DNA from: Pseudomonadota bacterium | GTDB lineage: Bacteria > Bdellovibrionota > FAC87 > UBA2466 | DNA length: 14,156 nt | Direction: 5' to 3' | NCBI GenBank assembly: GCA_043718025.1 | Contig: JAYSWN010000050.1 | Coordinates: 1 to 14,156 of the forward strand | In this document: one piece after another, positions 9,857 to 14,049 of the stretch | Layout of the letters: each line of letters starts with the position of its first letter | Position numbering within the stretch: position 1 is the first letter of the stretch | Notes under the pieces: generated by a model | What the model was told of the DNA's origin: nothing | Database searches by the model: none | What the model saw: only the letters and a program-made list of their open reading frames with translations | Position numbers and translations under genes: made by a program

Positions 9857-9941
9857 GGAGGGGTACCCGAGTGGCCAAAGGGATCAGACTGTAAATCTGA
9901 CGGCTCTGCCTTCGAAGGTTCGAATCCTTCCCCCTCCACCA
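9857..9941 (+). tRNA. tRNA-Tyr(GTA), long variable arm, CCA encoded
   Basis: Acceptor stem GGAGGGG/CCCCTCC, anticodon stem TCAGA/TCTGA with GTA at 9891-9893, T-arm GAAGG-TTCGAAT-CCTTC, ACCA end. Confidence 0.97.
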
Positions 9942-10007
9942 TAAATTTCGCCTCCCGGCGTAATTAGAAAATAGACAATCGAAAATCGCTGAGAACCCTT
10001 AGAAATT
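9883..10007 (+). repeat. 125-bp direct repeat, copy 1 (att-like; 3' 59 nt of tRNA-Tyr + 66 nt downstream)
   Basis: Identical to 13925-14049 except T9961 vs A14003. Confidence 0.95.
9944..9965 (+). terminator. Hairpin directly after tRNA-Tyr (AATTTCGCC-TCCC-GGCGTAATT), terminator/processing-like
   Basis: 9-bp stem with one mismatch here and perfect in the second copy (13986-14007). No good U-tract, so the function is uncertain. Confidence 0.35.
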
Positions 10008-10139
10008 CGAAACCGAGGGCGAAATTTATCCTCTATTTTCGATTCTCGATTTTCATACGAAACGGGCTCACTCAAATAAGGGAACCGAGGCGACCGCTGA
10101 GTCCCGCCCGAAGGCGGCCCTTTGGGCCGACCGTAGCGG

Positions 10140-10160
10140 CGAATCCTCCCCCCTCCAACA
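10140..10160 (+). repeat. Third, short degenerate copy of the tRNA-Tyr 3' end
   Basis: CGAATCCTCCCCCCTCCAACA vs tRNA 9921-9941 CGAATCCTTCCCCCTCCACCA, 19/21 identical. Confidence 0.8.
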
Positions 10161-10385
10161 CCTAACGTCCAACAATGGCGCTAAGGCCGTCCTCCCAACT
10201 AGGCGTCAAGCGGATCGATAGCACAGTGGTTGGAAGTTTTCAGGAAGCCCCTCCAATGTAGCGCTCCACCGAAATTCGTATCAAAAAGGAAGTGGGTAGC
10301 CTGGCTACTGCGCCGCGCGACTGCTTTCAGTGTCAGAACAAGTTGAAACCGATTCCGAAATCGTCAGGTCGGGTCCAGCTGTACT

Positions 10386-12140
10386 TCACTTTGGATACTT
10401 CCAGCTTAGGTAATCTTCGGCCAATTCTAGGCTCGACTTCAAAGCTGCGAGGCGGTTTGCGGAGTTAAAGACATCTCGCAGCAAGGGGTCTTCATGCAGA
10501 CGTTTAGCAAGTTGTCCCAAGATGAAATCCACACGTTCTTCGGGGGGAAGGGATTTGTGGTCCTTGGCGAGGATGGAGTTCAAAAGCGCTTGGACTTTGC
10601 CGAGCGCCACCGCTCTTTCGTCCCAACCAATGCCAATCTTTTGGGCCGCTTTTTTTTGCCGCTCAAAAAGTGCGTCCCCGCGGGCCTGGAGATAGTCGTT
10701 AAACTGCGGCCATTCCCTTGAGGGGGAAGCAAAGGCTTTAGGCACCAGGATATCGGCAAGCGCAGATGAGCTTCCCCCGCGTACCAGGATCTCCATCGTA
10801 ACCAGGCCTGCAGCCCCTCGAAGCAGAATCCGAGGAGCCCCTTTCGAATCCATGAAAACTGCAGCATGAGTTTCGTAAGTAGCGCTACGGACCGTTCCCT
10901 CTAAAAACTCCTGCACGCTATCGGCGGGGGTTGCACCCAAACTTTCAAGGGTGAGCTTTCGCACCTGCGTCACCACTTGAGCATGGTGGATGAGCTCCCG
11001 CCGCCAAACCGGATCGGATACATCCGGCAAGTGATTGATGACGTCATGCGGATCGAGGATCGGCCATTTGCCAGCTAGGACCGCGGCTTTGTACGAGCCT
11101 TGATCTAGAACCCCGTTTTCAGGTCGCACGTAACCATCGCGTTGCAAACCGGTTTTGCCCTGCTCATTCTTTATCAGCGAAGGGAGCTCCTCTGGAAAAG
11201 CGAAGACAAAGGGAATCTCGAACTCTTTTGCCCAAGCATCCAGCCTAGCTTTTAACTCTTTGTCGGCAATCGGGTCCAGGCTTCCCGACTTGTAGGGAGT
11301 AGTGAGGATTTGAGCTAGGCGTTGTTGGGCGGGAGTCGGCTCGGGAACGTTGAGGACGGAATATTTAAGGGCGAGGTAAAGTTCGATCTTGCTTTCAGCG
11401 AATTTTTTGGTGACATCCCATTGGAATAAAGCGGGGGGTAAAAGACTGAATACGTCGCGGCAGAGACTGGCTTGCGCGCAAGGTGCGAAAGATAGCGCCC
11501 ACCCGACGAAAAACTTAAGCAACTTGCTGGGGCTTTTTCTCGGCACCGGACAGCGAATTCGGCTTGAAACGGTACCCATAAACGAACTCGATCCTTTGAC
11601 CGCAATACCTACGTCATACTTTCCATCGGCAATGAACGGTCCACGTTCGGGCGCACCGGCAATCCGGGCATATTTCACACTGACTGGCAGGTTTACGCGA
11701 TTAACGTGGTGCGCCATACCCTCCGAGAATACCTCATGCTCGAGGCTGAAGACCGCCATGTATCTCCCCCGCCCACTCTTTCCCCTTTTCACTAGCGGCT
11801 TATGAGGAGACTTCATAACCTCTTCCGGCTTCGCTCCAAGACGAGCGACGAGCTGGGGCGAGAAGCGATAGTCCCTGCCCACCTTGGGTGGCTTGATTTC
11901 TCCAGCCTCGATCCAACGCAAAAGAGTGCGCGCGCTCTTGCCGATTACCTTTGCCGCGGCTTCAAGTGAAAGCCAAGGCTGTTCCATTTCAGAGGCTTCT
12001 AGGATTTGAACTTCGATCAGATTGCCCTCGCGGTCATAGCCGGCGAAAACATTCTCAGAGATCGGAACATCTTTTGACACACGTCCCTCGCGAAAGAGTA
12101 GCGAGATCGCGTCAGCCTTCTTATCGAAAGTAATTCTCAT
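10386..12140 (-). CDS. Composite ORF: N-terminal DUF2283-like domain + excisionase-type (HTH_17/MerR-like) HTH, in frame with a probable separate secreted protein (likely own start GTG 11546 or TTG 11522)
   Basis: aa 1-50 MRITFDKKADAISL...GYDREGNLIEVQILEAS is DUF2283-like; aa 56-98 WLSLEAAAKVIGKSARTLLRWIEAGEI...GRDYRF is HTH_17-like; aa 199-224 PRKSPSKLLKFFVGWALSFAPCAQA is an internal signal peptide. GGAG RBS upstream of 12140. Confidence 0.65.
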   Translation of the reverse strand: MRITFDKKADAISLLFREGRVSKDVPISENVFAGYDREGNLIEVQILEASEMEQPWLSLEAAAKVIGKSARTLLRWIEAGEIKPPKVGRDYRFSPQLVARLGAKPEEVMKSPHKPLVKRGKSGRGRYMAVFSLEHEVFSEGMAHHVNRVNLPVSVKYARIAGAPERGPFIADGKYDVGIAVKGSSSFMGTVSSRIRCPVPRKSPSKLLKFFVGWALSFAPCAQASLCRDVFSLLPPALFQWDVTKKFAESKIELYLALKYSVLNVPEPTPAQQRLAQILTTPYKSGSLDPIADKELKARLDAWAKEFEIPFVFAFPEELPSLIKNEQGKTGLQRDGYVRPENGVLDQGSYKAAVLAGKWPILDPHDVINHLPDVSDPVWRRELIHHAQVVTQVRKLTLESLGATPADSVQEFLEGTVRSATYETHAAVFMDSKGAPRILLRGAAGLVTMEILVRGGSSSALADILVPKAFASPSREWPQFNDYLQARGDALFERQKKAAQKIGIGWDERAVALGKVQALLNSILAKDHKSLPPEERVDFILGQLAKRLHEDPLLRDVFNSANRLAALKSSLELAEDYLSWKYPK

Positions 12141-12205
12141 AATTTTGGCTCCCAGTTTACCATCGAAGTAATTACGACCAGACTGGGCGCTTCAATTTCG
12201 CAGAG
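12137..12205 (-). pseudogene. Probable C-terminal remnant of a DUF4258-like toxin gene
   Basis: Reads LCEIEAPSLVVITSMVNWEPKL*, and its TGA overlaps the DUF2283 ATG (ATGA). The VVIT terminal strand and this coupling are typical of DUF4258-DUF2283 pairs. Only 22 codons. Confidence 0.45.
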
Positions 12206-13051: not shown

Positions 13052-13167
13052 TTAGTTCTCAGTAAAAGACAGAGGTGACAATGGCCAAGGGTGGGTGGGT
13101 ACCCTTTTGGAGCTTCTTAATTACCCTAAAAGAAAGGTGCGCCGTCACTTCTTTGTTAGGTCACTAC

Positions 13168-13470
13168 TTACGCCGCTCTAGCATAGGAAATTCGAATGGT
13201 CTGCCCAGTAGCTCCAAGTATCCGCAGCAACACATCTATGGAAATCCCATGACTGTCACCCTTAAGAACGTTGGTAACTCGCGCACGAGACGTCTTTGCT
13301 TTTTTCGCGATTTGGGTCACCGTGAATTGGTTCCGTTTTGCGGTCTCGATAATTCTGTTCGTGAGGCTGTAGCGTAGAATCCACTCTACCGCGTCAGCCG
13401 GCGTAAGGCCCATGACCTCCGCCAACTCCCTGGCGTCACGAGTAACGATAGGTTTTACTTTTTTAGCCAT
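13168..13470 (-). CDS. XRE-family HTH antitoxin (HigA-like)
   Basis: FTVTQIAKKAKTSRARVTNVLKG...ISIDVLLRILGATG HTH; 8-nt overlap with the toxin stop; AAGGAG RBS inside the toxin 3' end. Confidence 0.8.
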   Translation of the reverse strand: MAKKVKPIVTRDARELAEVMGLTPADAVEWILRYSLTNRIIETAKRNQFTVTQIAKKAKTSRARVTNVLKGDSHGISIDVLLRILGATGQTIRISYARAA

Positions 13471-13789
13471 TGAGCAACTCCTTAAGGCGCTTCGCGCCCA
13501 AATCTATTTCATTCGACGGCGTCTGCTGCGTCTTTTTCTTGAAAGCATGGAAAACTAGTACCCGATTTTCCACTTTCAGATAGTAAAACGCCCGGTAAAC
13601 GCCATCCGGTCCTCTAACCCGAAACTCGCTCACACCCGCTGCAACATCGGGCATTGGTCGCGAGGCTGGCAAGCCAAGCGACTCCCCTTGCTGTACGCGA
13701 AAAATGAGGTAACCAAGCTCCCGTCTGATCTCCTCAGGAAAACCCTTTACCTCGATGAGCGCTTTCGGATGCCAGACTACCTTTTTCAC
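13463..13789 (-). CDS. RelE/ParE-superfamily toxin (HigB/Gp49-like)
   Basis: SRPMP...GVSEFRVR...YRAFY...VLVFHAFKKKTQQTP..EIDL...RLK. The true start is probably GTG 13789; the longer ORF's N-terminus is antisense tRNA and promoter sequence. Confidence 0.85.
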   Translation of the reverse strand: MKKVVWHPKALIEVKGFPEEIRRELGYLIFRVQQGESLGLPASRPMPDVAAGVSEFRVRGPDGVYRAFYYLKVENRVLVFHAFKKKTQQTPSNEIDLGAKRLKELLNG

Positions 13790-13797
13790 TACCGAAG

Positions 13798-13826
13798 ATT
13801 GTACCGAATTCGGTACAGCATAGCAA
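13798..13826 (-). promoter_or_regulatory. sigma70 promoter of the RelE/XRE operon with an 18-bp palindromic operator
   Basis: -35 TTGCTA (13826-13821), 17 bp, -10 TACAAT (13803-13798), then 8 nt to GTG. Perfect palindrome TGTACCGAATTCGGTACA at 13800-13817. Confidence 0.8.
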
Positions 13827-13924
13827 GGAAGTAAGAGGCCACCCCTCTCTTTTCCGGTCTCCACGCCTCTTACTTTTACATTTCTGAAACCAACCCTTTC
13901 GGCTATAAATAACTGGTCAACGAC

Positions 13925-14049
13925 ATCAGACTGTAAATCTGACGGCTCTGCCTTCGAAGGTTCGAATCCTTCCCCCTCCACCATAAATTTCGCCTCCCGG
14001 CGAAATTAGAAAATAGACAATCGAAAATCGCTGAGAACCCTTAGAAATT
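13925..14049 (+). repeat. 125-bp direct repeat, copy 2 (displaced tRNA-Tyr 3' fragment, att-like)
   Basis: Matches 9883-10007. It lacks the 5' acceptor strand, so it is not a complete tRNA. Confidence 0.95.

What the first reader, a model, noticed from the sequence alone, without database searches (positions are those of the whole stretch)
9883..14049. Integrase-less 4-kb mini-island at tRNA-Tyr packed with TA-like modules
Seen: a 125-bp direct repeat (124/125 identical, 4,042 bp apart) starts at the tRNA-Tyr anticodon stem. Between the copies are two intact TA-like pairs, a third broken pair and one secreted-type cargo, with no recombinase, Rep or relaxase ORF. Established: tyrosine integrases often cross over in tRNA anticodon loops and leave a displaced 3' fragment, and TA modules can stabilise islands. 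Inference: this is a non-autonomous element mobilised in trans, or one unit of a tandem island array. Near-identical ends suggest it is recent and possibly still excisable.
Basis: partly seen in the sequence, partly recalled or inferred. Interest (0 to 1): 0.7.

Follow-up and report, generated by a model that had tools for sequence, protein, structure and literature searches.

The report
Decayed tRNA-Tyr islet with toxin-antitoxin pairs
A 4-kb block of toxin-antitoxin-type genes and one likely exported enzyme sits between a tyrosine tRNA gene and a near-exact copy of that gene's second half; it is likely the stranded leftover of a site-specific integrating element, an ordinary kind of structure that recurs in this bacterium and its relatives.

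Summary
There is a 125-bp repeat (124/125, 4,042 bp apart) from the tRNA-Tyr anticodon stem, two intact TA-type pairs, a third pair cut to 19 toxin codons, a cargo gene and no recombinase.

It is most likely a decayed, CIME-like remnant. Relatives carry 2.4-2.9-kb islets with the same tRNA-Tyr boundary, one with TA pairs plus an integrase stub. This genome has 14 other displaced tRNA pieces, including a TA-only islet at tRNA-Pro.

"Mobilised in trans, still excisable" is not supported. The assembly (92% complete) holds no intact tRNA-type integrase, and the islet ends lack the arm-type doublets seen at 11 of 15 comparison sites. A tandem-array reading stays open because the contig ends in a MITE 20 bp after the repeat.

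The scan has noted integrase-less tRNA islets before on other DNA (45 notes).

The new part is the cargo. It belongs to an unnamed family with signal-peptide-like N-termini and a predicted phenylalanine-hydroxylase-like fold, and keeps the His-His-Glu iron motif.

The parts
9709..9783 (+). tRNA-Thr(TGT), host gene upstream of the target
   Evidence: ARAGORN; Rfam RF00005
9857..9941 (+). tRNA-Tyr(GTA), intact target gene
9883..10007 (+). Repeat copy 1 (attL-like): 59 nt of tRNA from the anticodon stem plus 66 nt downstream
9967..10054 (.). AT-rich inverted repeat; complete here, cut in the middle in copy 2; related copies follow tRNA-His (C111) and lie on C178
10140..10158 (+). Third, 19-nt piece resembling the tRNA-Tyr 3' end (spelling found in tRNA-Tyr of G008 and G012), about 200 bp after the tRNA
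   Evidence: (D3)
10386..11579 (-). Cargo, about 397 aa (start inferred): signal-peptide-like N-terminus; unnamed family with a predicted aromatic-amino-acid-hydroxylase-like fold; His at 11046-11048 and 11031-11033, Glu at 10872-10874
11580..11780 (-). Former intergenic spacer, now read through in frame (inferred loss of the stop of the upstream gene)
11781..12140 (-). DUF2283 + HTH_17 (excisionase-type HTH) gene, orphaned partner of the broken third pair
   Evidence: Pfam; TIGR01764; homologues
12137..12196 (-). Last 19 codons and stop of a DUF4258-like putative toxin; the rest is replaced by the TumE pair
   Evidence: 18 of 19 residues match L089:5708-6004; DUF4258
12206..12589 (-). HVO_A0114-family HTH protein, putative antitoxin (127 aa); 85% identical to a copy at tRNA-Ser in G003
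12586..12858 (-). TumE-family putative toxin (90 aa; 98 aa from 12882)
   Evidence: PF20126 E 4.7e-11
12986..13108 (.). REP-like doublet with a 31-bp tandem duplication; same family as the inverted repeats flanking the genome's Y1 transposase on C53
13168..13470 (-). HTH_37 protein, putative HigA-type antitoxin (100 aa)
   Evidence: weak TIGR02607 hit under cut-off
13463..13789 (-). Gp49/DUF891 protein, putative HigB/RelE-type toxin (108 aa, GTG start)
   Evidence: PF05973 E 5.3e-20
13798..13826 (-). Sigma70-like promoter consensus overlapping an 18-bp palindrome (13800-13817), the usual layout of a TA operator (inferred)
   Evidence: 2 sites found, 2.7 expected by chance, so weak; sequence
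13830..13875 (.). Degenerate REP-like inverted repeat
   Evidence: score 10.9, weak; sequence
13925..14049 (+). Repeat copy 2 (attR, or internal junction of a tandem array)
14052..14156 (+). REP-like site and the first 88 bp of a ~257-bp MITE (9-bp target duplication) at which the contig ends

Best explanation
The block between the tRNA-Tyr gene and the copy of its 3' half is likely a stranded remnant (CIME-like) of an element that a tyrosine integrase would have inserted at the anticodon loop. Shown: the repeat, its start at the anticodon stem, the gene content, the absence of a recombinase, and the same layout with integrase stubs in relatives. Inferred: (1) an element of the family's tRNA-targeting integrase group inserted here; (2) deletions removed the integrase and its arm-type sites; (3) TA pairs accumulated by nested insertion, the TumE pair replacing most of an older DUF4258-like toxin, after which the orphan DUF2283/HTH_17 gene lost its stop; (4) the two intact pairs would kill or stall cells that lose the block by RecA recombination across the 125-bp repeat, so it persists. 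It could move only in cis, with an incoming element. Copy 2 may be the true attR or the junction to an older unit further on.
For: Family survey: 20 of 33 relatives gave a tRNA-Tyr match and 3 of them have two or three copies. In G047 (2,436 bp) and G049 (2,947 bp) the second copy starts at the anticodon loop; G047's islet holds a 190-aa integrase C-terminal fragment, HEPN + nucleotidyltransferase and an HVO_A0114 pair. That integrase group has whole frames of 350-395 aa in 9 of 17 loci inspected and a tRNA gene at its 3' end in 11 of 17; at tRNA-Tyr it is left as stubs of 190, 55 and 47 aa (G047, G016, G049). Own genome, 45 tRNA genes tested: 14 further displaced pieces starting at tRNA positions 24-33 (Met 7, Arg 4, Val 2, Pro 1), a 2.3-kb tRNA-Pro islet with Gp49 + HTH_37 and HepT + nucleotidyltransferase only, and a two-unit tRNA-Val array with several TA families. 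Anticodon-centred sites are common (2,083 of 3,919 islands; PMC4383910, passages). CIMEs are defined as att-flanked elements without integration and transfer genes, 1.2-13 kb (PMC5704250, PMC7563491, passages). TA pairs stabilise islands (PMC8978831, abstract).
Against: No integrase stub lies in this islet, so descent from that group rests on boundary position and neighbours. Identity starts 6-7 nt left of the loop and runs 66 nt past the CCA, longer than integration needs. Ends that are 99% identical fit poorly with several rounds of internal decay, unless the junction was remade or homogenised later. No intact integrase of this group was seen at tRNA-Tyr; the intact one in G019 is of another group and has no displaced fragment of this kind. 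TA activity is untested; the validated TumE pairs came from another subcluster, and there the toxin mostly lies downstream of its partner (PMC10584680 section 8), while here it is upstream.
Confidence: 0.62

Rival explanations
1. Integrase-independent origin: the block entered or was re-cut by homologous recombination across tRNA plus hairpin homology (insertion-duplication of a circle from a sister cell, or collapse of a tandem array), so the repeat is a RecA product that only looks like att sites.
For: 66 nt of identity beyond the tRNA; no arm-type doublet (0 at the attL side in 449 nt, against 11 of 15 comparison sites, chance 2.9% per 250 nt); no integrase stub; G015 has a 3,793-bp cargo-only block flanked by a duplication of the whole tRNA-Tyr plus 13 nt upstream; 7 of the 12 nt left of copy 2 still match the tRNA D-arm.
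Against: The left end falls at the anticodon stem, as do 14 other displaced pieces in this genome and those of G047 and G049; homologous recombination has no reason to pick that boundary. The unit would still descend from an integrase event.
Confidence: 0.2
2. Active non-autonomous satellite: an integrase and excisionase encoded elsewhere (an unassembled element) excise and re-insert the 4,042-bp unit, with HTH_17 acting as directionality factor.
For: Ends 124/125 identical. The assembly is 92% complete, in 234 contigs. Same-genus G001 and G002 carry intact integrases of the tRNA-targeting group. An HTH_17 gene lies beside the integrase of the tRNA-Tyr ICE in G019. A diverged version of the cargo and HVO_A0114 genes is covered by short contigs in run X4.
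Against: No intact helper in the assembly; no arm-type doublets; the HTH_17 here is the tail of a DUF2283 protein whose relatives follow DUF4258-like genes, and it is fused to the cargo; no relaxase or Rep.
Confidence: 0.14
3. Assembly artefact: the repeat or the order of parts was produced by the assembler.
For: The contig ends at a repeat; the distinguishing base at 14003 is absent from the public contigs; each junction contig has 30 repeat letters, one short of the tool's bridging bar, and no record spans a whole copy.
Against: In two runs the contigs stop at the repeat boundaries and carry three different unique neighbours (9978-11732, 13022-13954, 14020-14088), as a two-copy repeat gives in a k=31 graph; one of the runs may be the source sample. 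The same layout recurs in other genomes.
Confidence: 0.04

Closest known systems
CIME (cis-mobilizable element) and site-specific accretion, as in ICESt1/ICESt3-related islands (PMC5704250, PMC7563491; passages read)
   Same: attL/attR-like repeats kept; integration and transfer genes absent; size within 1.2-13 kb; tandem arrays at the same kind of target in this genome and family.
   Different: Derivation from an ICE or IME is not shown here; arm-type sites seem lost; content is almost all TA pairs; anticodon-loop site in an uncultured Gram-negative lineage.
tRNA-targeted genomic islands of tyrosine integrases, anticodon-centred subsite A (Islander, PMC4383910; passages read)
   Same: Intact tRNA plus displaced 3' fragment in the same orientation, starting at the anticodon arm.
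   Different: Islander requires an integrase gene in the interval; there is none.
TA-stabilised islands (HipAB in CGI48, PMC8978831, abstract; SGI1 as cited in PMC5704250)
   Same: TA pairs inside an att-flanked island at a tRNA.
   Different: Those islands excise with integrase and excisionase and were tested; here neither excision nor toxicity is shown.
TumE-TumA toxin-antitoxin superfamily (PMC10584680, section 8 and passages read)
   Same: PF20126 over cut-off; two-gene overlap with a DNA-binding partner.
   Different: Toxin-first order with an HVO_A0114 partner; no call or passage names this partner family as a tested TumA.
Pterin-dependent aromatic amino acid hydroxylases (PhhA; PDB 4bpt, 5jk5, 7vgm, 9hb7), for the cargo
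   Same: Predicted core fold; H-D-x3-H-x-P and T-x-E motifs align with the iron-ligand motifs of PhhA.
   Different: About 10% identity; no PF00351 hit; the 16-residue loop before the first His is missing; extra C-terminal helices; signal-peptide-like N-termini. Substrate and cofactor unknown.

Membership tests
CIME | Flanked by attL- and attR-like direct repeats at a target gene | tested here: met
CIME | No integration gene and no conjugation or mobilisation gene | tested here: met
   Pfam on 26 frames; integrase tblastn and HMM
CIME | Derived by deletion from an ICE or IME | tested here: inconclusive
   No relic of such genes inside; analogues at the same site hold integrase stubs and G019 has an ICE-like element at tRNA-Tyr
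CIME | att sites still usable, so that an incoming element can carry it in cis | tested here: inconclusive
   Core repeat intact; arm-type doublets not found; function needs an experiment
Autonomous tRNA island (Islander definition) | Tyrosine integrase gene between tRNA and fragment | tested here: not met
IME or trans-mobilised satellite | Own integrase, with relaxase or oriT, or a helper in the same genome | tested here: not met
   None in the islet; helper not found in a 92% complete assembly; oriT not tested
IME or trans-mobilised satellite | Excised circle and empty site | not testable with these tools
   Only contigs are held; a 125-bp repeat exceeds their word length
Type II TA pairs (HigBA-type, TumE-type) | Two small overlapping genes, toxin family plus DNA-binding partner | tested here: met
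   the label HigB/RelE for Gp49 is recalled, not from a call
Type II TA pairs (HigBA-type, TumE-type) | Toxicity and neutralisation by the partner | not testable with these tools
   needs expression assay
Aromatic amino acid hydroxylase family (cargo) | PF00351 match over cut-off | tested here: not met
   0 of 21 aligned members hit PF00351 at E<=10
Aromatic amino acid hydroxylase family (cargo) | Catalytic-domain fold | tested here: met
   The only 4 of 48,161 chains with Z>=5 are these enzymes (Z 6.6-8.2, rmsd 3.8-5.4, 157-179 aligned; next Z 3.7); HHalign 84%, E 7.8e-6, score 49 against at most 20 in 30 shuffles; Foldseek E no better than 0.016
Aromatic amino acid hydroxylase family (cargo) | His-His-Glu iron triad | tested here: met
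   His, His in 20 of 21 and Glu in 21 of 21 rows; the two His align in the local HHalign, the Glu only in the low-confidence global one; geometry not measured
Aromatic amino acid hydroxylase family (cargo) | Pterin-dependent hydroxylation of an aromatic amino acid | not testable with these tools
   needs assay

The most novel reading that the evidence does not exclude
These arm-less, TA-locked tRNA cassettes are still traded between cells of this lineage by recombination at their repeats, and this one delivers a member of an undescribed family of exported, phenylalanine-hydroxylase-fold iron enzymes that work outside the cytoplasm, on prey or environmental substrates, possibly without pterin. 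The cargo half alone (exported iron enzyme of this fold) is about 0.5 likely; the trading half is what lowers the joint figure.
Probability: 0.13. Interest if true: 0.55.

Novelty: new member of a known kind. Interest (0 to 1): 0.25.

Why it matters
The islet itself is ordinary. It shows how tRNA genes of this uncultured lineage collect integrase-less leftovers that TA pairs likely hold in place, and it warns that near-identical ends do not prove mobility. The cargo is the lead worth keeping: known aromatic amino acid hydroxylases are cytoplasmic pterin enzymes (recalled), so a family with this fold, an intact iron motif and export-type N-termini would be a new branch that is easy to test.

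Tried and rejected
Helper integrase in the own genome: PF00589 gave 3 hits (XerD-like, XerC-like, a family-wide core gene). The G019 integrase gave 0, PF00239 0 and PF07508 one short hit on C178. An HMM of 11 family integrases found, besides those three, only stubs on C3, C117, C63 and one weak hit on C126.

Circle or empty site: no joint inside the islet in two lays. Islet contigs were 1.12 and 1.10 times the flank depth, z about 1 each, not significant. The right-junction contig had depth 4.7 and 4.2, but contig depth is no copy number and another short contig was also low. X4 covers little of the left flank; absence of cover is not used. No RNA holder was listed.

What follows the MITE: C58 and C197 both carry the matching 9-bp duplication, C80 nearly so, and a further entry seen in the runs is not in the assembly, so the join is unresolved. 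Neither C58 nor C197 holds a tRNA-Tyr piece of 14 nt or more.

The 584-aa ORF as a hidden integrase or a natural fusion: rejected; proteins longer than 805 aa were not searched.

Cargo: word-index search found only itself; Pfam and NCBIfam 0; ESM Atlas best score 0.76; PDB sequence search put PhhA only at E 0.87, below unrelated hits; Foldseek had no hit at E<=0.001. None of 7 homologue loci had a tRNA within about 1.5 kb.

The search for related loci in genome contigs found nothing for DUF2283/HTH_17. Rfam found only tRNAs and chance hits. REP/RAYT-driven capture of the TA pairs was considered; the passages read in PMC5581495 say nothing on it and it was not tested. Literature searches for an exported hydroxylase-like family and for such islets in Bdellovibrionota listed nothing on point; the library lacks most subscription papers and no supplements were read.
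Full report
OBSERVATION. The window is the whole contig C179 of a 4.14-Mb, 234-contig assembly, 92% complete. Earlier unchecked notes call the host an uncultured member of Bdellovibrionota, and a member of one cargo homologue's cluster is labelled Bacteriovoracia by its source; no call of mine names the host. tRNA-Thr (9709-9783) and tRNA-Tyr (9857-9941) lie on the plus strand. 9883-10007 recurs at 13925-14049 with one difference (9961/14003), 4,042 bp apart. 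The repeat starts one base before the anticodon stem and covers 59 nt of tRNA and 66 nt beyond it. Those 66 nt are a small hairpin and the left half of an AT-rich inverted repeat that is whole only in copy 1. Copy 2 is cut by a REP-like site into which a ~257-bp MITE has inserted; pieces of this MITE lie on 10 contigs and end this one.

CONTENT. From right to left, all on the minus strand: Gp49 + HTH_37; a REP-like doublet; TumE + HVO_A0114; 19 codons of a DUF4258-like protein; DUF2283 + HTH_17; cargo. The intact version of the third pair is seen in a metagenome locus (L089, the same protein as L088): 80% DNA identity starts at 12197, nine bases from the stop of the HVO_A0114 gene, so the TumE pair likely displaced the toxin. 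The 30 homologues of DUF2283/HTH_17 found among proteins of 30-320 aa are 79-122 aa, and the 12 aligned stop near residue 103-122, where this copy runs on into the cargo; the 584-aa ORF is therefore best read as a lost stop. None of the 26 frames of 60 aa or more matches a recombinase, Rep or relaxase family. GC is 52.2% inside, 50.7% in the left flank and 51.9% genome-wide, so composition does not mark it as foreign. That Gp49 is HigB/RelE-like and that DUF4258-DUF2283 is a predicted TA pair is recalled, not from a call.

NOT FIXED IN RELATIVES. Among the listed matches of a BLAST of 9500-14156 over 40 relatives (36 weak matches not listed), the only one inside the islet's genes is the TumE pair of G003 (72% DNA; partner 85% protein), which lies at tRNA-Ser behind an integrase relic. 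The DNA after tRNA-Tyr differs from genome to genome among those I fetched.

THE SITE IS A HOTSPOT. Of 33 family genomes, 20 gave a tRNA-Tyr anticodon-arm match and three have extra copies. G047 has a 2,436-bp islet with a fragment starting at the loop, a 190-aa integrase C-terminal piece, HEPN + nucleotidyltransferase and an HVO_A0114 pair. G049 has a 2,947-bp glycosyltransferase islet, an arm doublet after its second copy and a third copy on another contig, which points to a tandem array. G015 duplicates the whole tRNA around 3,793 bp of cargo. G019 has an intact integrase, HTH_17, FtsK and TrbI genes directly after tRNA-Tyr. The G047 fragment belongs to a group of 350-395-aa integrases (whole frames in 9 of 17 loci inspected; a tRNA gene at the 3' end in 11 of 17), reduced at tRNA-Tyr to 190, 55 and 47 aa in G047, G016 and G049.

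THE OWN GENOME REPEATS THE PATTERN. Testing all 45 tRNA genes gave 14 other displaced pieces that start at positions 24-33: Met 7, Arg 4, Val 2, Pro 1. The 2.3-kb tRNA-Pro islet holds only Gp49 + HTH_37 and HepT + nucleotidyltransferase; the two-unit tRNA-Val array holds DUF4258 + DUF2283/HTH_17, ParE + RHH, BrnA and HVO_A0114 (24 selected ORFs scanned). Integrase stubs sit at tRNA-Arg, -Gly and -Pro; none is on C179 and no whole copy is in the assembly. The three PF00589 genes are XerD-like, XerC-like and a core gene present in 31 of 34 family genomes.

IS IT STILL MOBILE? Exact 7-nt doublets spaced 10-12 nt, which I read as arm-type integrase sites (inference from their position; the concept is recalled), occur after 11 of 15 comparison att sites (chance 2.9% per 250 nt). 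There is none in the 449 nt after this tRNA, and the one doublet left of copy 2 is part of the palindrome before the Gp49 gene. Four of the 15 comparison sites also lack an exact doublet, so absence is suggestive, not proof. Public data are four contig-only runs of one study. In X1 and X2 contigs stop at the repeat boundaries with three unique neighbours, each with 30 repeat letters, one short of the tool's bridging bar; none spans a copy, so integrated, tandem and circular forms cannot be told apart. Depth differences are not significant. X4 has short contigs over the cargo and the HVO_A0114 gene with up to 7 differing letters, so a diverged version exists in that sample. Beyond the MITE, C58 (AbiEii, another HVO_A0114 pair, a short integrase-like tail seen by eye) and C197 are both possible continuations.

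MECHANISM. Most likely (0.62) an integrase of the family's tRNA-targeting group inserted an element at the anticodon loop; integrase and arms were deleted; TA pairs nested in; and the intact pairs now penalise loss by recombination across the repeat. This is the CIME and accretion model (PMC5704250 and PMC7563491, passages; Islander signature in PMC4383910, passages; TA stabilisation in PMC8978831, abstract and outline). I took the CIME wording from earlier notes of this scan and then checked it in those papers. The weak point is the youth of the ends and the 66-nt extension. Both are explained if copy 2 is a junction between related units of an array, or if the junction was remade by RecA (rival, 0.20). 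An active satellite is possible only with an unassembled helper (0.14). Artefact 0.04.

CARGO. phmmer over 1.84 billion representatives gave 25 homologues (301-676 aa), many with hydrophobic N-termini read by eye (no signal-peptide predictor was run). Homologues occur in 5 of 33 family genomes. The model of 388 residues has pLDDT 88, that of the 265-residue core 84. For the core, the only 4 of 48,161 chains with Z>=5 are phenylalanine or tryptophan hydroxylases (Z 8.2, 7.2, 6.8, 6.6; rmsd 3.8-5.4; 157-179 aligned; next 3.7). Profile comparison with 20 PhhA sequences from the phylum gives 84%, E 7.8e-6 over 58 columns, score 49 against 16 reversed and at most 20 in 30 shuffles, aligning both His ligands; the Glu aligns only in the weak global run. 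His, His and Glu are kept in 20, 20 and 21 of 21 rows. Against: Z values are middling, Foldseek E is 0.016 at best, and PF00351 is not hit. It likely binds iron like these enzymes but is not a member of the Pfam family; substrate and cofactor are unknown. Whether this copy is made from its own start or as part of the 584-aa read-through is unknown. Searches found no description of such a family.

VERDICT. Real feature, correctly described; a new member of a known kind; current mobility unsupported; interest 0.25, most of it from the cargo.

Noticed in passing
window 10386-11579 (minus): Cargo belongs to an unnamed family (25 representatives) with signal-peptide-like N-termini, a predicted phenylalanine-hydroxylase-like fold and a conserved His-His-Glu motif; one homologue is fused to a methyltransferase (P0038). 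Worth its own study.
   Followed up: partly
window 11703-12004: This 302-bp piece is a separate contig at depth 15.6 in run X2 (neighbours 9.3-9.4) and contigs break at the same places in X1, which suggests a second identical copy with other flanks; none is in the assembly.
   Followed up: partly
window 10140-10158: A 19-nt piece like the tRNA-Tyr 3' end lies about 200 bp after the tRNA, the size of gene-less microCIMEs (PMC7563491); similar short near-by duplications follow tRNA-Ser (C29) and tRNA-Arg (C173).
   Followed up: partly
window 14069-14156; G000 C189:1-257, C173, C80, C129, C215, C46, C91, C197, C58: A ~257-bp MITE with 13-bp-plus terminal inverted repeats inserts into REP-like palindromes with a 9-bp target duplication; its transposase was not looked for.
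   Followed up: partly
window 12986-13108; G000 C53:11438-12199 (L057): A REP/REPIN-like family (44 sites at score >=19 in the last round, 4 in the reversed genome) flanks the genome's single Y1 transposase; copies bracket the Gp49 pair in the islet.
   Followed up: partly
L040:7830-9080 (G000 C190): A third Xer-like tyrosine recombinase of about 416 aa is a core gene in 31 of 34 family genomes (60-88% identity) and passes no NCBIfam cut-off.
   Followed up: partly
G000 C160, C107, C59, C33, C3, C216, C80: Seven displaced pieces of one tRNA-Met(CAT), several with shared flanks and HTH antitoxin-type genes nearby: probably a long fragmented tandem array.
   Followed up: partly
window 9967-10054; G000 C111:2781-2894, C178:9029-9126: An AT-rich palindrome built of 7-mer repeats follows several tRNA genes here and in relatives (G016, G002); its origin is unexplained.
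   Followed up: no
L030:7515-12027 (G028, same order): Downstream of tRNA-Tyr lies a patatin + E2/ThiF/JAB gene set behind an ISL3 transposase, which looks like a CBASS-type defence locus (label recalled).
   Followed up: no
window 1-9700: thrA-thrB-thrC-like genes, a GT87-like membrane protein, four hypothetical proteins and a matrixin precede the tRNA pair; the genes that precede it in several relatives lie on C106 here, so the locus is rearranged.
   Followed up: partly
G000 C90:16544-17344: The genome also has a long-form PF00351 hydroxylase gene in a 610-aa frame, separate from the cargo.
   Followed up: no
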